A stretch of DNA of 15,584 bases, taken from positions 1 through 15,584 of the forward strand of contig JAEWAU010000077.1 in NCBI GenBank assembly GCA_023391535.1. Direction: 5' to 3'. The position numbers and the translations under genes are program-made. The stretch comes from Bacillota bacterium (lineage in GTDB: Bacteria; Bacillota; Clostridia; Oscillospirales; Ethanoligenentaceae). The notes under the pieces are model-generated. The model made no database searches. It was not told the DNA's origin and saw nothing but the letters and a program-made list of their open reading frames with translations. This document shows, piece after piece, positions 878-15,534 of this stretch. Each line of letters opens with the position of its first letter. Positions within the stretch are counted from its first letter, which is position 1.

Positions 878-986
878 GGTTGCGGCGTTCCATAAAAGCC
901 TGAAAGAGACTTCGTTTCGTCCGCCTGTCTTCGCGAAAAGGCGAAACGCTTCCAAAGCCGTCGGTCTTTTCTGGAGATGCCGCGGG
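878..986 (-). repeat. Copy C5 (minus orientation) of the ~105-nt intergenic repeat/structured-RNA-like element family.
   Basis: The reverse complement begins cccgcggcatctccagaaaag...ggaagcgtttcgccttttcgcg and ends ggcttttatggaacgccgc. This aligns block by block with the copy at 9350-9460. Confidence 0.6.
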
Positions 987-6008: not shown

Positions 6009-8060
6009 TTACATCGGCTTTGCGTTCCCGGAGCTTTCTTCCGGCGCGGGAGCCGTTTCGGCCTGCGGCGCCGCGGCGGGCGCCGGGTTCGCGTCTGCGG
6101 GAGCCTCCGCCCTGGGCGCGGAAGGCATCTCCACGCCGAGCTTCGAGAGCGTGAGCAAATTGAGCAGCACCGAAAGAATGCCGCCGTCGCTCTGCTTCTC
6201 CGCGCCTCCCATGTTTACAACGGTCGTGGGCACGAGCGGGATTTTGGATTCGCGCATCGCCTCGGAGAGCTTGTCGGCGATCTCCTGCGTGAGCCGGTAG
6301 CCCGAACCGCCGTAGGCTTCCACCTGCTTCTGGATGGCCGTCGCCTTTGCGGTGCCCACGGCGGCTTCCTTTTCGGCCTCCGCGTTGCCTTCGAGGCGCA
6401 CGCGCTCGGCGTCGGCCCGCGCGATGGAGACGATCTTGTTGGCTTCCTGCGCGGCCTTGCGCGCAATGGCCTCGCCTTCGTTGGCCGCCACGTCGATGGC
6501 GATCTTGGACTGCGTGAGCGCCGTCTGGTTCTGCGCGGCGGCCTGCGCCTCGCGCAGGCTGCGCTCGGTTTCGGCGGCTTCGCGCTGCTTGTCGTAGGTG
6601 ACCTTCTGCTCCTCGGCGATCTGCCGGTCGCGCAGCTGGGTGAGGATGTTCTCGATGCGGCTGTCGCCCGGGGCGGCCTCCGGCGTACCGATGAGCACCT
6701 CTTCAAGGCTGAGGTTGTAGGCCGCGAACTTCTCGCGCATCTCCACCACCGCGCGTTCGCGGATGGCGCTGCGCTCCTGGATCAGCTCGATGAGCGTCTT
6801 GGTTTGGGCAATATCCTTGAAATACGCGGAAACCAGCGGGTCCAGCGACTGATTGACGAGCTTGGTAAGATCCCCGAAGCGCTGGATGACCCAAGGCGCC
6901 TCCTTGTAATCGATGTGCATCACGACGGAAAGCGGCAGCATCGGCTCGAACGCGTCCTTGGTGATGATATCCACCTCGGCGAGGTCGGCGTCGTATTTCT
7001 GCCCGCCGCTCTCATCCTTCTTCCACTTGAGGATGATGTTGGTGGTGGGCACCAGCGAGATGGCGCCCGCGTCGGTGTTGAACGCGTATTTGCCGGGCAT
7101 CAGCGGCTCGGCCAGCACGCCCTTGCAGCCGGCCTTTACCAGCTCGCCGTGGCCGTACTCCTCGCCCGTGGTGTCGGCTCCGCGCTTGCCGTAGAACGAC
7201 GTGACCACGCCCACGTACCCGATGGGGACAATGGTTTTGGGCCGCAGCTCCACCGTGGCGAACAGGCGGTTGATGTAATAGGTGCCGTCCGTGAGCACCT
7301 GGAGCTGTTTGCCGCGGCAGCCGCCCTCGGCAAGGAAATGCTCCGGGTCCTGAAAGCTCGCGTGGCCGTTGCCCACGTCGGGCGCAATAATCTCATTCTG
7401 CGCAATGGAAGGCCCGTCGTGCACGGTGACGATGCCGAGCATGTCGCTCGCGTCGCCCATGCCGGGCGTGCGCGGCCCCGCGCTGATGATGACCACGGGC
7501 GTGAACGCATTGCGCGCCTTGAGCGTGTTCTCAAGGCTCTGAAGCTCGGAGAGCTCGCGGGCTCCGGCGGCGATGGATTTGATGCCCGAGGTGGTGACGA
7601 CGATGAACTGGGCGAGGTTGATGGCGTAGGTGCCCTCGCGGAGGATACCGCGCTGCGGGCCGCGCTGCCCGCCGTTTTTCAAAAAGCCGCGCACGTCCTG
7701 AAAGTTATCCGCTTCCGGAACCACGCGCCCGAGGGTCTGCTGCGGCGCGAGGGGAACGCCGTCGCGGGCGAACACATAGGCCATTTCGCCCTGCGAAACG
7801 GTGAGGAGCGGATACCGGTGGATGCGGTACATCAGCGCCGTGCGGAAGTGGACGCCGCCGCGCAGCAGGTCGGGCATATAGCCCGCCTCTCCGTTTAACG
7901 CGATGATGGAATTTTTGAGCGAGCCTTTGAAGCTGAACCATTTTTCCACCACGGCTACTTCGCTCGGCTTGATGACGCGCAGGCCCAGGATTTTGAAAAT
8001 GAGGAGCCAGAGGACGATCAGCCCTCCCACGACGTAGAGGACCGGCAGGAGATTACCCAT
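6009..8060 (-). CDS. floT: Flotillin-like SPFH/band-7 domain protein (FloT/YuaG type), 683 aa, with an Ala/Pro-rich C-terminal tail.
   Basis: N-terminal membrane hairpin MGNLLPVLYVVGGLIVLWLLIF, SPFH core, and a long Ala/Glu-rich coiled-coil region (EAQAAAQNQ..., AEAEKEAAVG). Start at 8060 with RBS GAAAGGAAGG. The annotated 727-aa ORF adds 44 unsupported N-terminal residues. Confidence 0.85.
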   Translation of the reverse strand: MGNLLPVLYVVGGLIVLWLLIFKILGLRVIKPSEVAVVEKWFSFKGSLKNSIIALNGEAGYMPDLLRGGVHFRTALMYRIHRYPLLTVSQGEMAYVFARDGVPLAPQQTLGRVVPEADNFQDVRGFLKNGGQRGPQRGILREGTYAINLAQFIVVTTSGIKSIAAGARELSELQSLENTLKARNAFTPVVIISAGPRTPGMGDASDMLGIVTVHDGPSIAQNEIIAPDVGNGHASFQDPEHFLAEGGCRGKQLQVLTDGTYYINRLFATVELRPKTIVPIGYVGVVTSFYGKRGADTTGEEYGHGELVKAGCKGVLAEPLMPGKYAFNTDAGAISLVPTTNIILKWKKDESGGQKYDADLAEVDIITKDAFEPMLPLSVVMHIDYKEAPWVIQRFGDLTKLVNQSLDPLVSAYFKDIAQTKTLIELIQERSAIRERAVVEMREKFAAYNLSLEEVLIGTPEAAPGDSRIENILTQLRDRQIAEEQKVTYDKQREAAETERSLREAQAAAQNQTALTQSKIAIDVAANEGEAIARKAAQEANKIVSIARADAERVRLEGNAEAEKEAAVGTAKATAIQKQVEAYGGSGYRLTQEIADKLSEAMRESKIPLVPTTVVNMGGAEKQSDGGILSVLLNLLTLSKLGVEMPSAPRAEAPADANPAPAAAPQAETAPAPEESSGNAKPM

Positions 8061-8221
8061 AAACACGCCTTCCTTTCTGCGGCCCGGGCGGATTTGCCCG
8101 GGCCGGTCTCGGTGCTTCGTTTGCTGCCTTCCTTGCTTTTCTTTTATAGGAAACATACGTCCGGCGCGCCGGCGTATGAGGAGCAGGCACATGCCCGCCG
8201 TCTGTTTTTTCCGCGCGTTTC

Positions 8222-8244
8222 GACGAAATCCAACAAAAAAAGGT
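8222..8244 (-). terminator. Palindromic hairpin plus T-run (minus strand) between tspO and the flotillin gene.
   Basis: AAGGTTCCGGAACCTT, a perfect 16-bp palindrome, is followed on the minus strand by TTTTTTTGTTGG. Confidence 0.5.
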
Positions 8245-9163: not shown

Positions 9164-9349
9164 AACTCGGACAAAGTGAAAAGTTGTCCCACATCACACC
9201 GGCGGCGAATATACTGAACCAGAAGCGAAAATATTTTTCCCGCTTTGCCAATACCCGACAGACATCTGTTTTGAAATATATGGATATTCAAGGGAATTTC
9301 ATGTTTAAACGGCGCATTTTTGCGGCACAATAAAAATGGTTCCGGCAAT

Positions 9350-9460
9350 CCTGCAGCATTTCCAGAAAAGATGGATGCATTCCGAAGCGATTCGCCTTTT
9401 GCCGGAGGCAAACAGACGAATCGCGGCTTCCCCCGATTTTTATGGAATTGCCGCCATGCG
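9350..9460 (+). repeat. Copy C1 (plus orientation) of the ~105-nt element. It forms the 5' leader of mazF.
   Basis: cctgcagcatttccagaaaag...ccgaagcgattcgccttttgccggagg...acagacgaatcGCGGCTTCCcccgatttttatGGAATTGCCGCc. The first 21 nt are the exact reverse complement of 10723-10743. Confidence 0.65.
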
Positions 9461-9512
9461 CTTCCGAGGCGCCGCCGGGGCCGTAGAAAATCTTACCGGA
9501 GAGTGGAGAGTC

Positions 9513-9890
9513 GTGACGGTTCACAGAGGAGAAATCTATTACGCCGATCTCAGCCCCGTTGTCGGGTCCGAGCAAGGCGGCGTGCGGCCGGTGCTGATCG
9601 TGCAGAACGACGTCGGCAACCGGTACAGTCCCACCGTGATCGCGGCGGCGATCACGAGCCAAACAGCTAAAACGCGGCTGCCCACGCACATCAACATCAA
9701 TGCCGACAGCTGCGGGCTTTCGAAAAATTCCGTGGTGCTTCTCGAACAGATTCGGACCCTCGACAAGAGGAGGCTCAAAGAGCGCATGGGCACGCTGGAT
9801 ATACCTTCCATGCAGAAGGTGGACAATGCGCTCACCATCAGTTTCGGGCTTGGCCTGAAAGGTTCCAGCCGGGGCGTGGAACATACATAA
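9513..9890 (+). CDS. mazF: MazF/PemK-family mRNA interferase (EndoA/NdoA-like endoribonuclease toxin).
   Basis: Near-identity blocks to Bacillus EndoA: [28 protein letters not shown] and [19 protein letters not shown] start 9513 follows RBS GGAGAGTGGAGAG. The in-frame upstream 59 codons (from ATG 9336) have no RBS and overlap the repeat element. Confidence 0.85.
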
Positions 9891-9918
9891 AACTGTCCCG
9901 GAAAAGAATACCCGATTT

Positions 9919-9966
9919 TCGGCGCTGTGAAACGCAAATTCTGCGCTTTGCGGCGCCCCTTTTTTG
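9919..9966 (+). terminator. Rho-independent terminator after mazF.
   Basis: Nested stem GGCGC..CGCAAA-uucugcgc-UUUGCG..GCGCC followed by CCTTTTTT. Confidence 0.6.
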
Positions 9967-10120
9967 CCCGGGAATAACGTGCGCGCGCCGCGCGAATACT
10001 ATGAGCAGTTCCATTTCTGTTCGGGAGAAGCCGAAAAAAAACCTGCAGGAAATGCCGCCGCACAAAATCCGTTTCCTATCGGGCTTCGTACCGCTATTGT
10101 AGAAGGAAGGATGGACCGCA

Positions 10121-10306
10121 ATGCCCAATATCACCGACCGGGAGCTGGAAACGCTGCAGAATCTGCTCGGGAACGAGCAGGTGCTCGTAAAAAAGTACCG
10201 CTTTTTCGCCTCCTCCTGCACCGATCCTCAGCTCCGCGTCAAATTCCAGCAGATGGCGGCGCGCCACACGGACCATTTCAACCGCCTGCTCAGCTACCTG
10301 AACTGA
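10121..10306 (+). CDS. Small CotF-family (Coat_F domain) spore coat protein, 61 aa.
   Basis: Coat_F-like N-terminal pattern TDRELETLQNLLGNEQVLVKKY. RBS GGAAGG 10 nt upstream of the ATG. Paired with a second Coat_F gene, as in Bacillus yraD/yraF. Confidence 0.65.
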   Translation: MPNITDRELETLQNLLGNEQVLVKKYRFFASSCTDPQLRVKFQQMAARHTDHFNRLLSYLN

Positions 10307-10360
10307 ACACACCGCCGAAAGGCGCAGCGCCGAAAATGCGCGGAAAGGAAAGCCGCACCG

Positions 10361-10639
10361 ATGGATCAGAATCAGAACAGCGCCAACGTCCTGGGCGACC
10401 GGGAAATGCTGGAGGATTTTATCTCCTCCCAAAAGCACCTCACGGAAAGCTATAATGCATTCGCCAATACCTGTGCCACGCCCAATCTGCGAGACGAATA
10501 CATGAACATCCTCAAAGACGAGCACCAGATTGAGGCGGAGCTGCTCGACGAGTCGCTCAAGCGGGGCTGGATGCAGATTCAGCAGGCAGACCTGCAAAAA
10601 GCGGCGCAGCTTAAGCAGCAATATCAGAACGCTTTTTAG
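10361..10639 (+). CDS. CotF-family (Coat_F domain) spore coat protein, 92 aa.
   Basis: LGDREMLEDFISSQKHLTESYNAFANTCATPNLR is typical of Coat_F domain proteins. RBS GGAAAGGAAAG 7 nt upstream. Confidence 0.7.
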   Translation: MDQNQNSANVLGDREMLEDFISSQKHLTESYNAFANTCATPNLRDEYMNILKDEHQIEAELLDESLKRGWMQIQQADLQKAAQLKQQYQNAF

Positions 10640-10743
10640 CAATTCCGGTAAAGATTGAGAAAAGCCGTATTTTGTCTCGGTTTGGCAAAATACCCCCGAA
10701 ATATCCCGGAATGATCCGATCTTTTCTGGAAATGCTGCAGGCT
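10639..10743 (-). repeat. Copy C2 (minus orientation) of the ~105-nt element. The most divergent copy; its end overlaps the cotF stop codon.
   Basis: Reverse complement begins cctgcagcatttccagaaaag, a 21-nt exact match to C1, and ends ...ctttaccggaattgct. Confidence 0.6.
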
Positions 10744-10765
10744 GGCGGGAAACCGCCCGGCAAAC

Positions 10766-10803
10766 GGCTCCGGACCGCGCGGGCGCGTTCCGGAGCCTTT
10801 TGC
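10766..10803 (+). terminator. Rho-independent terminator for the cotF pair.
   Basis: Perfect 8-bp inverted repeat GGCTCCGG / CCGGAGCC with a 16-nt GC-rich loop, followed by TTTTGCC. Confidence 0.55.
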
Positions 10804-10810
10804 CGGTTTA

Positions 10811-10908
10811 TAGCAACTTCATAAAAAATTGAGAAAAGTTGCGTTCCGCCCCTCCGGCGGAAAGGCGGAACGCTTCGGAACCTGCCAAACTTTTCTGGAA
10901 ATGCTGTA
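10811..10908 (-). repeat. Copy C3 (minus orientation) of the ~105-nt element, in tandem with C2.
   Basis: Reverse complement: tacagcatttccagaaaag tttggcaggttccgaagcg ttccgcctttccgccggagg ...GCAACTTttctcaattttttatgAAGTTGCta. The hairpin stem covaries with C1 and C4. Confidence 0.65.
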
Positions 10909-10916
10909 AAGAGCAC

Positions 10917-10958
10917 AAAAAGCGGAGGACCTCCCATAACGGGAAGCCCTCCAGAGGT
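10917..10958 (-). terminator. Rho-independent terminator of the SASP gene (minus strand).
   Basis: Minus-strand RNA GGAGGGCUUCCC-GUUAU-GGGAGGUCCUCC forms a 12-bp stem with two G-U pairs, followed by GCUUUUUGUG. Confidence 0.7.
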
Positions 10959-10959
10959 C

Positions 10960-11127
10960 TTATTTTGGTACGTTGCGCTCCGCCATCTCAATCGCCTTTT
11001 TGACGATATTGCCGCAATCGCGGCTTGAAACGGAACCCCAGCCCTCGCGTTTGACCTGTTCGTCAACCCCGAGTTCCTTGGCTATTTCATATTTGAGCTG
11101 CTCGCTCATCATGGAATGCCTGCCCAT
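10960..11127 (-). CDS. Alpha/beta-type small acid-soluble spore protein (SASP), 55 aa.
   Basis: MGRHSMMSEQLKYEIAKELGVDEQVKREGWGSVSSRDCGNIVKKAIEMAERNVPK. The KYEIA-ELGV and GSV..R.CGNIVK blocks are hallmark SASP motifs. RBS AAGGGGG 8 nt upstream of ATG 11127. It is the C-terminal part of a spurious 608-aa ORF. Confidence 0.8.
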   Translation of the reverse strand: MGRHSMMSEQLKYEIAKELGVDEQVKREGWGSVSSRDCGNIVKKAIEMAERNVPK

Positions 11128-11466
11128 CGCTAAGACCCCCTTCATGGTGTTGCCATGATACGCTTCAAAGAGAGGCGTTTCCGGGATGCACGGATTCCGG
11201 TTCGGCGCGTTTAGCTTTCGTTTTCCCGCCATAAGCGGGAAGGACGCGAGCCCTTCGTGTCTTCCGCTTCGTCCGTGCGCTCTTATTGTGTGCGCGCCGC
11301 GCAAAGATATGCGCCTCCAAAAAACGGCTGCGGCATCCTGGCAAAAGCAAAAATATTTCTTTGTTTCCCGGTTTATTTTGAACGCGCAGCCGCCAAAGCG
11401 GCCGTATCGCGCATAAACCGCCCCGCGCGCGCATAAGATTGCACCGGCACGGTTCGCCGATCCGCC

Positions 11467-11495
11467 TTGCGAAAAAGTGCGGAATATGATACAAT
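11467..11495 (+). promoter_or_regulatory. Strong sigma-A-type promoter with extended -10 driving the dac gene.
   Basis: -35 TTGCGA (11467-11472), 17-nt spacer, TGaTACAAT extended -10 (11487-11495). Predicted TSS about 11502, just before the start of repeat copy C4. Confidence 0.65.
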
Positions 11496-11505
11496 ATAAA
11501 TAATG

Positions 11506-11618
11506 CCGTTTCCAGCATTTCTGGAAAAACCGGCATATTTCAATGCATTTCGCCGAATCGAGAGAGACAGACGGAATGCAGTTCCTCCCGATCTTTATGG
11601 AATTGCTATAGCGATGCG
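11506..11618 (+). repeat. Copy C4 (plus orientation) of the ~105-nt element. It forms the entire 5' UTR of the dac gene.
   Basis: ccgtttccagcatttctggaaaaacc...atgcatttcgccgaatcg...acagacggaatGCAGTTCCtcccgatctttatGGAATTGCtatagcgatgcg. Here the 5' motif has an inverted central tetranucleotide (CTGG versus CCAG) and folds as its own 7-bp hairpin UUUCCAG-CAUUU-CUGGAAA. Confidence 0.65.
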
Positions 11619-11661
11619 GCCCGGAAAACGGCCGGACATCCGGAAGGGGCGACAAAGCGTT

Positions 11662-12846
11662 ATGAGGCGAAAACCACCCTGCGGTAGAATGATACTTTCT
11701 GCATTGCTGGCGGTTTTTTTCTTGTTTACAGGCTCCGTCCTGCCTGGCTCCGCCGCAGCGCCCGCCGCGGCGAGTTTTGCCTCCTCCGCTCCCGATATCA
11801 CCGCCGTGAGCGCCATTGTGGCGGACGCGGGCACCGGCGCCATCTTCTACGAGAAAGACATGCACCGCGCGATGTACCCGGCGAGCATCACCAAAATTCT
11901 CACGGGGCTGCTTGCCGTGGAGCGCGGGAATACGCAGAGCGCCTTCGCGGTGACGCCCACGGCGCTTTCCGCAATGCCGTCCAACGCGGCGCGCGCGGGG
12001 CTTGTTTCCGGGGAGCAGATCACGCTCGACGAAGCGCTCTACACCATGTTTCTCGCTTCGGCCAACGATTCGGCGAACGCCATCGCCATCCAGGTCGGCG
12101 GCTCCATCCCGAATTTCGTGCAGATGATGAACGCGCGCGCCAAACAGCTCGGCGCCGTGGACAGCCATTTCGACAATCCCAGCGGGCTGCCGGATAAAAA
12201 CAACCTCACCAGCGCCTACGATATGGCGATCATCACGCGTCAGGCCCTGGAAGAGCCTTCCCTGATGAAATATTTCGGCGCGAAATCCTACGTGATGCCC
12301 GCAACGAACAAATATCCCAAAACGCGCGCGTTCACCACGCTTCAGAAGATGATGAAAGACACCGCCTACCAGTACGACGGCACCATCGCGGGCAAAACCG
12401 GGTGGGAAACGATGTCCGGCCACACGCTGGTGACGGCCGCGCAGCGAAACGGCCGCACGCTCATCTGCGTGGTGCTCAGAAGCAGCGACGGGTATTCGGT
12501 GTACCAGGATTCCATCAAGCTGCTCAATTACAGCTTCACGTTGCCCGCGTCCTACAGCGTCGGCTCGCTTCTGGCGCCGGCAGCCGCGCAGCCTTCGTCT
12601 TCGGCCCAAAGCACACGCTTCGCCTCCTCTTCCCCCGCCGTACCTTCCAAAGCGGCGGTTCATACGGGAAAAATCGCCGTCCCGCGCGATATGGGCACCA
12701 CCGCGGCTCCGATTCTGCTCCTTTTGTTCATCCTCTGCCCGTTCGTCCTTTTCCTGCTGCTGCGCCGCCCGAAGCTCGCCGCCCAACAGCCCGAGCCGCC
12801 CCGCGCGCGCATCCGGCCGCGCCGCCCGCCTGAAGGACGCCCGTAA
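11662..12846 (+). CDS. D-alanyl-D-alanine carboxypeptidase (peptidase S11; DacB/DacF-like low-molecular-weight PBP) with signal peptide and C-terminal membrane anchor.
   Basis: Active-site motifs ASITK (SxxK), SAND-like SANDSAN and KTG (AGKTGWE). N-terminal signal MRRKPPCGRMILSALLAVFFLFTG; hydrophobic C-terminus ILLLLFILCPFVLFLLL. ATG 11662 with RBS GGAAGGGG 11 nt upstream. The opposite-strand ORF 10960..12786 is spurious here. Confidence 0.85.
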   Translation: MRRKPPCGRMILSALLAVFFLFTGSVLPGSAAAPAAASFASSAPDITAVSAIVADAGTGAIFYEKDMHRAMYPASITKILTGLLAVERGNTQSAFAVTPTALSAMPSNAARAGLVSGEQITLDEALYTMFLASANDSANAIAIQVGGSIPNFVQMMNARAKQLGAVDSHFDNPSGLPDKNNLTSAYDMAIITRQALEEPSLMKYFGAKSYVMPATNKYPKTRAFTTLQKMMKDTAYQYDGTIAGKTGWETMSGHTLVTAAQRNGRTLICVVLRSSDGYSVYQDSIKLLNYSFTLPASYSVGSLLAPAAAQPSSSAQSTRFASSSPAVPSKAAVHTGKIAVPRDMGTTAAPILLLLFILCPFVLFLLLRRPKLAAQQPEPPRARIRPRRPPEGRP

Positions 12847-14164: not shown

Positions 14165-14213
14165 ATACCGTGAACGTTACGCATACCGTGAACGACAATG
14201 CGTACCGTGAACG
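14165..14213 (+). repeat. Three tandem direct repeats of (A/G)TACCGTGAACG (period 18-19 bp), plus an overlapping palindrome, upstream of the yaaH-like gene.
   Basis: ATACCGTGAACG at 14165-14176 and 14183-14194; GTACCGTGAACG at 14202-14213; degenerate fourth unit TCAACG follows. GCGTACCG-TGAA-CGGTACGC palindrome at 14200-14219. A sigE/sigK-like CATACCGT lies inside unit 2. Confidence 0.6.
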
Positions 14214-14253
14214 GTACGCCGTCAACGCAGGACCGAAAAGGACAGTGATCGGT

Positions 14254-15534
14254 TTGGTCATCTATGTGGTACGGCCCGGGGACAGCGTCTATTCCATCGC
14301 CCGGGCACACGGCGTCACGCCCGAAAGCGTCATCCGCACCAACCGGCTCGCAAACCCCGCGCAGCTCGTCGTGGGGCAGGCGCTGCTGCTCCCCGTGCAG
14401 GGCTACGAATACACGGTGCGCAGCGGCGACACCGTCTATTCCATCGCGCGCGCCACAGGCGCGAGCCAGGCGTCCATTTTCCGGGCGAACCCGCAGATTC
14501 CCCAGAGCGGCGCGCTCTCGCCCGGGCAGGTGCTCATAATCCCCGCGCCGGAGCCGAAGCTCGGCACCATCGAGGTCAACGGCTACATATTCCCCGGCTC
14601 CAATGAGCAGGTGGTGCGCGACGCGCTGCCCTCCCTCACCTATCTGAGCGTTTTTTCCCACGAGGTTGCCGCGGACGGCACCCTCAGCACCGTGGACGAC
14701 GCCAAATGGATTGCCATGGCGCGTGCGGCGCGCGTGGCGCCCATCATGGTGGTGGCGAACATCCGCCCCTCGGGCGGCTTCTCCAGCGATATTGCCGGCG
14801 CCGTCCTCGCCACTCCCGAAACGCGAAGCAAGCTCATCGACATCATCGCGAGCACCATGCAGCGCAAGAACTACTACGGCGTGAACATGGACCTCGAGTA
14901 CATCCGGCCCGAGGACCGCGAAAATTACAACCAGTTCCTGCGCGAGCTTTCGGCGCGGCTGGGGCAGCTGGGCGCTCCGCTGCTCACCGCCGTGGCGCCC
15001 AAGGTCTCGGCCACGCAGCAGGGCCTTCTCTACGAGGCGCACGACTACCCCGTGCACGGCGAGGTGGCCAACCGCGTCATCCTCATGACCTACGAATGGG
15101 GCTACCTCGCGGGCCCGCCGCAAGCCGTGGCGCCGCTCGACCAGGTTCGCCGTGTGCTGGAATACGCCGTAACGGCCATTCCGCCCCAGAAGATCCTCAT
15201 GGGGGTGCCCAACTACGGGTACGACTGGACCCTTCCCTACCGGCGCGGGACGCTCGCCACCACGTTCTCGAACGTCGAAGCCGTAAACCGCGCCTTCCGC
15301 AACAACGCCGAGATCCAGTTCGACCAAACGGCCCAGTCTCCGTTTTTCAACTACACCGACGCCCAGGGCCGCCAGCATGTGGTGTGGTTCGAGGATGTGC
15401 GCTCGCTTCGGCAGAAATTCCTGCTCGTGCACGAGCTCGGCCTCGCAGGCATCAGTTACTGGACCATTGAGCGCCCCTTCCCACAGAACCTGGCGCTGTT
15501 AAACTCCATGTACGATGTGAAAAAGCTGCTGTAA
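14254..15534 (+). CDS. Spore peptidoglycan hydrolase of the YaaH/SleL type: two N-terminal LysM domains and a GH18 catalytic domain.
   Basis: LysM1 YVVRPGDSVYSIARAHGVTPESVIRTN; LysM2 YTVRSGDTVYSIARATGASQASIFRAN. GH18 active-site region YYGVNMDLEYIRPED resembles YaaH DGVNIDFE. Start uncertain: TTG 14254 lies 11 nt after AAAGGA; in-frame GTG 14245 and the track's GTG 14170 are less plausible. Confidence 0.8.
   Translation: MVIYVVRPGDSVYSIARAHGVTPESVIRTNRLANPAQLVVGQALLLPVQGYEYTVRSGDTVYSIARATGASQASIFRANPQIPQSGALSPGQVLIIPAPEPKLGTIEVNGYIFPGSNEQVVRDALPSLTYLSVFSHEVAADGTLSTVDDAKWIAMARAARVAPIMVVANIRPSGGFSSDIAGAVLATPETRSKLIDIIASTMQRKNYYGVNMDLEYIRPEDRENYNQFLRELSARLGQLGAPLLTAVAPKVSATQQGLLYEAHDYPVHGEVANRVILMTYEWGYLAGPPQAVAPLDQVRRVLEYAVTAIPPQKILMGVPNYGYDWTLPYRRGTLATTFSNVEAVNRAFRNNAEIQFDQTAQSPFFNYTDAQGRQHVVWFEDVRSLRQKFLLVHELGLAGISYWTIERPFPQNLALLNSMYDVKKLL

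What the first reader, a model, noticed from the sequence alone, without database searches (positions are those of the whole stretch)
11467..11664. One element copy is the complete 5' UTR of the D-Ala-D-Ala carboxypeptidase gene, directly behind a near-consensus extended -10 promoter
TTGCGA-N17-TGaTACAAT places the predicted TSS at about 11502. Copy C4 begins at 11506 and runs to about 11618. The dac RBS and ATG follow at 11643-11664. The element therefore makes up essentially the whole ~155-nt leader, which is the arrangement expected for a riboswitch or leader-type regulator. In this copy the conserved 5' motif has its central CCAG flipped to CUGG. That creates a local 7-bp hairpin (UUUCCAG-CAUUU-CUGGAAA) and abolishes the potential 5'/3' end pairing seen in C1. 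This could be an alternative conformer or switch variant.
Basis: partly seen in the sequence, partly recalled or inferred. Interest (0 to 1): 0.7.

Follow-up and report, generated by a model that had tools for sequence, protein, structure and literature searches.

The report
Dispersed palindromic repeat in dac leader
The structured sequence in front of the cell-wall enzyme gene is one copy of a roughly 100-base palindromic repeat scattered through this uncultured spore-former's genome (a miniature-transposon-like element), sitting just behind the gene's conserved promoter, so it is not a dedicated riboswitch.

Summary
TTGCGA-N17-TGaTACAAT (11467-11495) precedes a repeat copy (core 11511-11610). 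The SD is at 11642-11649 and the dac ATG at 11662. The 7-bp hairpin UUUCCAG/CUGGAAA is present.

The promoter is probably real. The same cTTGaat-N12-TATGATAnAAT box lies upstream of dac in four related contigs.

The riboswitch or leader-regulator reading is not supported.
- The copy belongs to a family of about 100-nt elements: 17-19-nt inverted arms (TA-CAGCATTTCCAGAAAAG...CTTTTCTGGAATTGCTG-TA) around a covarying hairpin.
- At least 8 copies lie in about 37 kb of this species. They occur in leaders, after genes, between convergent genes and antisense.
- A relative's 21-kb contig holds at least 5 more copies.
- The dac leaders of three relatives keep the promoter but lack the element.
- There is no Rfam match and no terminator in this copy.
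- The "switch" hairpin is broken in a strain whose Dac is 98% identical.
- The "flipped" CUGG can still pair with the 3' arm through two G.U pairs.

The best reading is a MITE-like insertion that is co-transcribed as about 60% of a 160-nt 5' UTR. Any effect is probably constitutive, such as a hairpin at the mRNA's 5' end that stabilises it. The family seems undescribed, but it is an ordinary kind of element.

The parts
11467..11472 (+). -35 hexamer TTGCGA of the dac promoter
   Evidence: It aligns with TTGAAT in the orthologous promoters of L123, L126 and L127.
11487..11495 (+). Extended -10, TGaTACAAT. The predicted TSS is about 11501-11503.
   Evidence: The TATGATAnAAT box occurs once per locus and lies upstream of dac in five related loci. 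The TSS is inferred, not mapped.
11511..11610 (+). Repeat copy Ce (the finding). It consists of TA-like flanks, a 5' arm, a central hairpin and a 3' arm.
   Evidence: Covariance-model match of 82.8 bits, E 5e-16, over model positions 1-105. nhmmer and the alignments agree.
11503..11536 (+). Predicted 5'-terminal stem-loop of the transcript. AUGCCG plus UUUCCAG pairs with CUGGAAA plus CGGCAU, using the host flank and the element's 5' arm.
   Evidence: It is in both the MFE and centroid folds. This conformer is -39.3 kcal/mol against -31.1 for the arm-paired conformer. It is weakened in L137.
11544..11580 (+). Central hairpin of the element, UGCAUUUCG...CGGAAUGCA. It is not followed by a U tract.
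   Evidence: In helix 2, 5 of 9 pairs show compensatory changes across copies. No + strand terminator call was made here.
11582..11589 (+). UUCCUCCC tract inside the element. It is predicted to pair with the dac SD with probability about 0.5.
   Evidence: One search gives the pairing partners (leader positions 81-88 with 141-148). The effect on SD accessibility is not distinguishable from shuffled controls.
11593..11608 (+). 3' arm, CTTTATGGAATTGCTA, followed by TA at 11609-11610
11642..11649 (+). Shine-Dalgarno sequence GGAAGGGG of dac
11662..12846 (+). D-Ala-D-Ala carboxypeptidase gene (Peptidase_S11). Public gene calls use an alternative start at 11689.
   Evidence: Pfam PF00768, E 1e-45.
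881..984 (-). Repeat copy Ca. It lies between two + strand genes, so it is antisense to both.
   Evidence: Covariance-model match of 80.2 bits.
9352..9455 (+). Repeat copy Cb. It lies 58 nt upstream of the likely mazF start, GTG 9513.
   Evidence: Covariance-model match of 88.1 bits. The PemK domain begins at residue 64 of the 9336 ORF.
10635..10739 (-). Repeat copy Cc. It lies in the convergent cotF/ssp spacer and its arm contains the cotF stop codon.
   Evidence: Covariance-model match of 87.3 bits.
10809..10908 (-). Repeat copy Cd. It lies downstream of the ssp terminator, and its central hairpin plus T tract looks like a terminator.
   Evidence: Covariance-model match of 93.3 bits. The terminator scan reports 15 pairs. 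The fold gives -45.6 kcal/mol, z -4.5.

Best explanation
**What it is.** The segment at 11511-11610 is one copy of a dispersed, non-coding, roughly 100-nt palindromic repeat family. Each element has 17-19-nt imperfect terminal inverted repeats, usually flanked by TA, around a variable but base-paired central hairpin. [quoted passage not shown] The family belongs to an uncultured Clostridia lineage.

**How this copy got here.** It sits about 10 nt downstream of the start site of a pre-existing, conserved sigma-A-type extended -10 promoter of dac, probably by insertion. It is therefore co-transcribed as about 60% of a 160-nt 5' UTR.

**What is shown and what is inferred.**
- Shown: family membership, dispersal into unrelated contexts, the paired architecture, promoter conservation, and absence of the element from the dac leaders of relatives.
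- Inferred: mobility by a trans-acting transposase, the transcription start site, and the RNA-level consequences.

**Most likely consequence.** Any effect is constitutive, not ligand-responsive. The element's 5' arm together with the host flank forms a stable stem-loop within 1-2 nt of the mRNA's 5' end. In Firmicutes that arrangement protects mRNA from 5'-end-dependent decay. A UUCCUCCC tract may also partly pair with the SD.
For: **A dispersed family**
- There are five full copies in the window.
- The same species has a full sixth copy downstream of groEL, a short arms-only form and a half copy.
- That makes about 8 copies in about 37 kb.

**Copies in relatives**
- L126 has at least 5 copies in 21 kb. 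There is one copy in L133 and one in L138.
- TA flanks both ends of CAGCA...TGCTG in the five full-length copies in relatives, and in Cd, Cf and the L137 form of Ce.
- Arm-to-arm spacing is 63-67 nt in most full copies.

**Paired architecture**
- 92% of cells are paired, against 18-43% for slid controls. In the inner helix, 5 of 9 pairs carry compensatory changes.
- The arms covary between relatives: AGAAAAG/CTTTTCT, ACTTAAG/CTTAAGT and AGTTAAG/CTTAACT.
- Across loci, G.U and A.C mismatches are about equal (4 against 6), so there is no strand asymmetry.
- In co-directional gene contexts, 3 copies are sense and 3 antisense.

**Host promoter conserved, element not**
- The promoter box is conserved upstream of dac in L123, L124, L126, L127 and L137.
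- Leader length varies from 103 to 261 nt.
- No element is found in the L123, L126 or L127 leaders by nhmmer or by the covariance model.

**An insertion-like difference elsewhere**
The orthologous dac-rrf2 spacer holds a 62-nt element in L138 and none in L126.

**Known precedent**
MITE-like repeats forming parts of 5' and 3' UTRs are documented for the bcr elements of Bacillus cereus (PMC3446304), and for Correia, ERIC and SPRITE elements (PMC10969869).
Against: - No empty-site comparison was close enough to show a target-site duplication, so the TA could simply belong to the inverted repeat.
- No autonomous element or transposase with matching ends was found in the DNA available.
- No presence/absence polymorphism was seen among the near-identical strains (L001-L005, L137, L140-L142).
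- Copies within this species are only about 65-70% alike, so any mobility here is old.
- Central hairpins differ completely between copies in the relative L126. That is unusual for a MITE family derived from one master copy.
- The stabiliser role is inferred from folding alone. The fold of the whole leader is not more stable than shuffles (z -1.6).
- This copy has 3 G.U and no A.C mismatches. That is a weak hint (chance about 1 in 8) of RNA-level constraint on this copy in particular.
Confidence: 0.8

Rival explanations
1. The copy is a cis-regulatory leader RNA of dac, either riboswitch-like or an attenuator. The local 5' hairpin and the 5'/3' arm-paired form would be the two alternative states.
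For: - The copy sits immediately behind a conserved promoter and ahead of the RBS.
- Two mutually exclusive conformers exist on paper.
- Its only non-Watson-Crick stem pairs are 3 G.U pairs, which RNA tolerates.
- The UUCCUCCC tract can pair with the SD.
Against: - The same sequence family occurs in 3' regions, in convergent spacers and antisense.
- It is absent from the dac leaders of L123, L126 and L127, although the promoter is conserved there.
- There is no Rfam hit.
- There is no terminator or U tract after the central hairpin on the + strand.
- The conformers differ by about 8 kcal/mol, and the hairpin is broken in the 98% strain.
- SD accessibility is 0.23 with the element, 0.34 with it deleted and 0.32 +/- 0.10 with it shuffled.
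Confidence: 0.07
2. The family is a host-selected structural or protein-binding module rather than a transposon relic. The arms, which contain the near-palindrome TTTC-CA-GAAA, would bind a nucleoid protein, a regulator or RNase III. Alternatively, the elements would serve as terminator or insulator hairpins, like REP or SPRITE elements. The dac copy would then place dac under that factor.
For: - The arms and the overall length are conserved between species while the central sequences are replaced. Pairing is kept even so.
- Cd and Cc carry terminator-like hairpins followed by T tracts in their own orientation.
- The two clear leader copies (Cb, Ce) have C-rich tracts instead of T tracts after the hairpin.
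- Promoter-proximal copies in this species end 33-58 nt before start codons.
Against: - No binding protein could be tested.
- The CodY box was considered, but its half-site spacing differs by one base.
- The C-rich and T-rich variants also exist as subtypes in the relative L126. They therefore need not reflect selection at each site.
- Orientation is random in co-directional contexts.
- REP elements are 20-40 nt, GTAG- or CGTC-tagged, and were not reported in Firmicutes in the survey read (PMC3733652).
Confidence: 0.1
3. The copies are independent small-RNA genes. The promoter at 11467-11495 would drive a roughly 110-nt sRNA, with dac expressed by read-through.
For: - A promoter lies directly upstream of Ce.
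- Cb also lies about 20 nt downstream of a CACAAT -10-like box.
- MITE-derived sRNAs are known, for example from QMITE in Coxiella (PMC10969869).
Against: - Ce has no terminator.
- The other copies have no promoter. Cd follows the ssp terminator directly and Ca is antisense between genes.
- The promoter is orthologous to the dac promoters of relatives that lack the element.
Confidence: 0.03

Closest known systems
Correia elements (Neisseria MITEs)
   Same: - Length of about 100-150 nt with terminal inverted repeats and TA at both ends.
- Dispersed in intergenic regions and often co-transcribed in 5' UTRs, where they fold into a long hairpin.
- They can carry outward promoter-like ends.
These properties are as reviewed in PMC10969869 and PMC2229807.
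   Different: - There is no sequence similarity, and the phylum is different.
- An IHF site and RNase III cleavage were not tested here.
- The central region here is a variable hairpin rather than a conserved core.
- A target-site duplication is not proven.
bcr1-bcr3 (MITE-like) and bcr10/bcr18 repeats of the Bacillus cereus group
   Same: These are Firmicute interspersed repeats of about 100-160 nt that fold stably. About half of the copies are transcribed as parts of 5' or 3' UTRs or operon spacers (PMC3446304).
   Different: The sequence family and the host lineage differ. bcr1 has a TTTAT duplication, by my recollection, which I did not check. No transcript data exist for this organism.
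Pneumococcal RUP, BOX and SPRITE repeats
   Same: These are small repeats that cluster together in intergenic junk regions and insert into one another. SPRITE carries a rho-independent terminator-like hairpin (PMC3049150; PMC10969869). Here, Cc, a 24-bp palindrome, Cd and the ssp terminator are bunched at 10635-10953, and Cd looks like a terminator.
   Different: There is no sequence relationship. The modular BOX architecture is absent. A terminator function for this family was not tested.
Riboswitches and leader attenuators
   Same: A structured segment of about 100 nt lies between the promoter and the RBS.
   Different: There is no conserved aptamer across orthologues, no gene-class association, no expression platform and no Rfam match. 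The same sequence also occurs in non-leader contexts.

Membership tests
MITE (miniature inverted-repeat transposable element) | Terminal inverted repeats | tested here: met
   The arms CAGCATTTCCAGAAAAG and CTTTTCTGGAATTGCTG pair at 12-16 of 17 positions. The outer helix is 91.5% paired across copies.
MITE (miniature inverted-repeat transposable element) | Small size (under about 300 bp) with no coding capacity | tested here: met
   Elements are 55-117 nt. The open frames through Cb and Ce are in different frames at the 5' arm, so there is no conserved ORF (and inspection of the sequence).
MITE (miniature inverted-repeat transposable element) | Multiple dispersed copies in one genome, mostly intergenic | tested here: met
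   There are about 8 copies in about 37 kb of the source species and at least 5 in 21 kb of L126. All are intergenic or overlap a stop codon.
MITE (miniature inverted-repeat transposable element) | Target-site duplication flanking each copy | tested here: inconclusive
   TA flanks both ends in 5 of 5 full-length copies in relatives, and in 3 of 6 full copies of this species (counting Ce by its L137 form). No empty site is available to show that the TA is duplicated rather than part of the repeat.
MITE (miniature inverted-repeat transposable element) | Presence/absence polymorphism at orthologous sites | tested here: inconclusive
   Between species: the dac leader is filled here and empty in L123, L126 and L127. 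The dac-rrf2 spacer is filled in L138 and empty in L126. The flanks are too diverged to define exact junctions. No polymorphism was seen among near-identical strains.
MITE (miniature inverted-repeat transposable element) | A cognate autonomous IS or transposase with the same ends | not testable with these tools
   None lies in the roughly 120 kb of related DNA held. The genome and metagenome pattern scans were capped and returned only chance seed hits plus L133. The viral scans found nothing.
Riboswitch / cis-regulatory leader RNA | Sequence and structure conserved upstream of orthologous genes | tested here: not met
   The promoter is conserved but the element is absent from the L123, L126 and L127 dac leaders.
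Riboswitch / cis-regulatory leader RNA | Consistent 5'-leader position and sense orientation across copies | tested here: not met
   Copies lie 3' of ssp and groEL, in a convergent spacer, and antisense (Ca, L126 7070 and L126 19336).
Riboswitch / cis-regulatory leader RNA | Expression platform (terminator/antiterminator, or SD sequestration beyond chance) | tested here: not met
   No + strand terminator lies in the leader. SD accessibility is 0.23 against 0.32 +/- 0.10 for shuffles.
Riboswitch / cis-regulatory leader RNA | Match to a curated RNA family | tested here: not met
   There are no Rfam hits at gathering thresholds over the whole window. At the E-value threshold only chance eukaryotic hits appear.
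REP / RAYT-associated palindromes | Palindrome of 20-40 nt tagged by GTAG or CGTC, often in clusters near a RAYT gene | tested here: not met
   Elements are about 100 nt with 17-19-nt arms. CTGTAG appears at some ends in relatives, while others have CTGTAA. No RAYT gene was seen. The definition is from PMC3733652.

The most novel reading that the evidence does not exclude
The repeat family may not be mere selfish DNA. It could be an exapted RNA-level module. Under this reading, copies placed in the sense orientation 33-58 nt upstream of start codons (mazF, dac and a 253-aa gene here) provide a common long hairpin. A shared factor such as RNase III or an RNA-binding protein would act on it, coupling the expression of scattered genes in this sporulation-rich neighbourhood. 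The dac copy's wobble-only substitutions would reflect selection on its RNA fold.
Probability: 0.08. Interest if true: 0.55.

Novelty: new member of a known kind. Interest (0 to 1): 0.25.

Why it matters
Small palindromic repeats are easily mistaken for riboswitches or small RNAs when only one copy is seen behind a promoter. This case shows how to tell them apart, using the copy census, orientation, and orthologous leaders.

The family appears undescribed. It has no Rfam match, the literature search for its core motif returned only unrelated papers, and its host is an uncultured Clostridia lineage.

It also causes annotation errors. The public 184-aa mazF call reads through one copy, and the cotF stop codon lies inside another.

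If the 5' hairpin or the arms do affect dac mRNA, this would be one more example of a mobile repeat rewiring a cell-wall gene's leader. That would add a case to a known phenomenon, not a new principle.

Tried and rejected
**Database scans for more copies**
- Rfam at gathering thresholds over the whole window, and at E-value thresholds over 9300-11700, gave nothing relevant.
All were seed-only chance hits by nhmmer. None of the 15 re-scored with the covariance model gave a convincing match (best E 0.009, a 43-nt stretch in L030). That spent the only scan of this collection.
- A metagenome scan with a two-arm pattern returned 9 loci. Only L133 is a true family member.
- Two viral-contig scans found seed-only hits or nothing.
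- A literature search for the sequence motif found only unrelated papers.

**Alternative readings**
- Coding. ORFs run from ATG 9336 and ATG 11503 through Cb and Ce, in frame with the downstream genes. I rejected coding because the two copies are read in different frames at the 5' arm, there is no SD, and an extension ahead of the Dac signal peptide is implausible.
- CodY box. TTTC-CA-GAAA has a 2-nt centre, whereas the consensus AATTTTCWGAAAATT has a 1-nt centre. This rests on my own knowledge of the consensus and was not tested further.
- Integron attC site. The ends do not fit RYYYAAC/GTTRRRY.
- Independent sRNA. The other copies have no promoter and this one has no terminator.

**Tests that gave no signal or could not be completed**
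- SD sequestration by the element is not different from shuffled controls.
- The leader of the closest syntenic Dac relative found (L138) cannot be read. The contig starts 64 nt before the ATG, and only a faint arm-like TTTTTTATAATGCTATAA is visible.
- The 81% GroEL relative L172 has no copies in 21.6 kb.
Full report
**Observation.** The stated features are in the sequence.
- -35 TTGCGA lies at 11467-11472, followed by a 17-nt spacer ending in TG (11487-11488) and -10 TACAAT at 11490-11495. The consensus scan lists this site as 9 of 12 matches with TG. That places a start site near 11501-11503.
- The hairpin TTTCCAG (11509-11515) / CATTT / CTGGAAA (11521-11527) exists. It is extended by AUGCCG/CGGCAU into a 13-bp stem-loop starting 1-2 nt from the predicted 5' end.
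- SD GGAAGGGG is at 11642-11649 and the ATG at 11662. Public gene calls use the ATG at 11689. I prefer 11662 because it gives a basic MRRKPP N-terminus ahead of the hydrophobic stretch.
- The gene is a Peptidase_S11 D-Ala-D-Ala carboxypeptidase.

**The repeat family.** The window holds five full copies of a roughly 100-nt element:

| Copy | Coordinates | Strand |
|---|---|---|
| Ca | 881-984 | - |
| Cb | 9352-9455 | + |
| Cc | 10635-10739 | - |
| Cd | 10809-10908 | - |
| Ce (the finding) | 11511-11610 | + |

- The 5' motif GCATTTCCAGAAAAG is an imperfect inverted repeat of the 3' motif CTTTATGGAATTGC. Between them lies a hairpin whose sequence varies but whose pairing is kept.
- On an 8-sequence alignment, 92% of cells in the two helices are paired, against 18-43% when the partners are slid. 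In the inner helix, 5 of 9 pairs show compensatory changes.
- The core of Ce is about 96-100 nt of a 160-nt leader. It makes up about 60% of the leader, not all of it.

**Source and gene map.** The window is part of a 151-kb metagenomic scaffold (ENA ERZ28601458, scaffold_32).
- The gene order is DAO, GH2, MFS, SPFH, TspO, MazF, a 61-aa ORF, CotF, SASP, Dac, Rrf2, DUF1648 and LysM-GH18.
- The nearest named relatives are distant. GroEL is 79% identical to a [Clostridium] cellulosi MAG, and Dac is 47% identical to Ethanoligenens.

**Contexts of the copies.**
- Ca lies between two + strand genes and is antisense to both.
- Cb lies in the divergent tspO/mazF spacer, 58 nt before the likely mazF start.
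- Cc and Cd lie in the convergent cotF/ssp spacer. Cc contains the cotF stop codon, and Cd follows the ssp terminator.
- Ce lies in the divergent ssp/dac spacer.
- Extending the scaffold gave a sixth full copy downstream of groEL (L139 18636-18736). It also gave a short arms-only form just upstream of a 253-aa gene (L139 15288-15348) and a half copy between two minus-strand genes (L171 7928-8002).
- That makes about 8 copies in about 37 kb.

**Relatives.**
- A syntenic contig from a relative with 61% Dac identity (L126) carries at least five members: 7070-7172, 8144-8244, 16956-17059, 19336-19452 and a short one at 1818-1871. It also has a half element abutting 7070.
- One more member lies on a JGI contig (L133), and a 62-nt one lies in L138.
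- In the five full-length copies the ends read TA-CAGCAWTTCC...GGAAWTGCTG-TA. Arm spacing is 63-67 nt in four of the five.
- The inner part of the arms covaries: AGAAAAG/CTTTTCT, ACTTAAG/CTTAAGT and AGTTAAG/CTTAACT.
- In co-directional gene contexts, three copies are sense and three antisense.
- Across loci, G.U (4) and A.C (6) mismatches are balanced. There is therefore no family-wide sign of selection on one transcribed strand.

**The dac promoter and orthologous leaders.**
- The box cTTGaat-N12-TATGATAnAAT occurs once in each of L123, L124, L126, L127 and L137, always upstream of dac. The promoter is therefore a conserved host feature.
- The distance from the -10 box to the ATG varies: 103, 166 and 261 nt in the relatives and 167 nt here.
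- Neither nhmmer nor the covariance model finds the element in the L123, L126 or L127 leaders.
- The strain whose Dac is 98% identical (L137) has the element with four differences.
- L138, the closest syntenic Dac relative found, is cut 64 nt before the ATG, so its leader cannot be read.
- The dac-rrf2 spacer carries an element in L138 but not in L126. This is an insertion-like difference at an orthologous site.

**RNA-level checks on this copy.**
- No Rfam family matches.
- No terminator-like site lies on the + strand in the leader. The central hairpin is followed by GUUCCUCCCGAU, not a U tract.
- The CCAG-to-CUGG change still allows arm pairing through U.G and G.U pairs. The local 5' hairpin conformer is nevertheless about 8 kcal/mol more stable.
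- The fold of the whole leader is not exceptional (z -1.6 here and -0.7 in L137).
- UUCCUCCC (11582-11589) is predicted to pair with the SD with probability about 0.5. Mean SD accessibility is 0.23, against 0.34 with the element deleted and 0.32 +/- 0.10 with it shuffled, so the effect is not distinguishable.

**Interpretation.**
- The copy is a member of a MITE-like palindromic repeat family. It lies inside the dac leader and is co-transcribed.
- A ligand-sensing or switching role is not supported.
- The most plausible consequence is constitutive. From established knowledge of Firmicute mRNA decay, a stable stem-loop at the very 5' end protects against 5'-end-dependent degradation. The element's 5' arm plus the host flank forms such a stem-loop. 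This is inference and was not tested here.
- Known parallels are the Correia, ERIC, RUP/BOX/SPRITE and bcr elements, which are often transcribed within UTRs (PMC10969869, PMC3049150, PMC3446304).

**Limits.**
- Transposition is not proven. No empty site, autonomous partner or strain polymorphism was found.
- Central hairpins that differ completely between copies are unusual for a MITE. A host-selected structural or protein-binding role therefore remains possible.
- The genome-wide scans were capped and returned mostly chance hits. The family's true range is unknown.

**Verdict.**
- The interpretation as a riboswitch-type leader is not supported.
- The family is a new member of a known kind, and interest is modest.

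Noticed in passing
window 9336-9890: Public gene calls give MazF as 184 aa because the ORF reads through repeat copy Cb. The PemK domain starts at residue 64, so the likely start is GTG 9513. No MazE-like antitoxin ORF is evident directly upstream, so the toxin gene looks orphan.
   Followed up: partly
window 10635-10739 (Cc) and cotF 10361-10639: The cotF stop codon (10637-10639) lies inside the arm of repeat copy Cc, so the repeat supplies the end of the ORF.
   Followed up: partly
window 10757-10806: A 24-bp, 92% complementary palindrome with a 2-nt loop sits between Cc and Cd. Together with the ssp terminator (10953-10923, minus strand), it makes the convergent cotF/ssp spacer a cluster of hairpin elements.
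   Followed up: no
window 10809-10908 (Cd); L133 1321-1424; L126 16956-17059: The right end of several copies reads like an outward promoter: TTCTCA-N17 (ending in TGc)-TATAAA in Cd, and TTGCAA-N16 (ending in TGc)-TGTAAT or TGTAGT in relatives. The two clear leader copies (Cb, Ce) have CCCGAT in place of the -35-like box. This was seen by eye only.
   Followed up: no
L126 7036-7172: A half element (TATAGCATTTCATTTTAAGAATGTGAGACAGCGC, matching the start of the 19336 copy) abuts a complete TA-flanked element. This may be a nested insertion.
   Followed up: partly
window 10960-11130, 10361-10639 and 14188-15534; L139 14550-15113: The neighbourhood is rich in sporulation-type genes: an alpha/beta SASP, CotF, a SipL-like protein and a LysM-LysM-GH18 protein. 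The organism is therefore a spore-forming Clostridia lineage with no close named relative.
   Followed up: partly
L123 650-908: The dac leader of this relative is about 260 nt long and contains other hairpins, GCGTTCGCGTGAGCG...CGCACGC and CAGTATGGC...GCCATACTG. The dac leader seems to accumulate different palindromic inserts in different lineages.
   Followed up: no
L049 5264-5805: A 41-nt unit repeated 13 times in tandem in a Mediterranea MAG contains the seed motif by chance. It is unrelated to the family.
   Followed up: yes
L004 1016-1120 versus window 10635-10739: A strain variant of copy Cc lacks 11 nt and has a central hairpin broken by two A.C mismatches. This suggests relaxed constraint, or recombination between copies.
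   Followed up: partly
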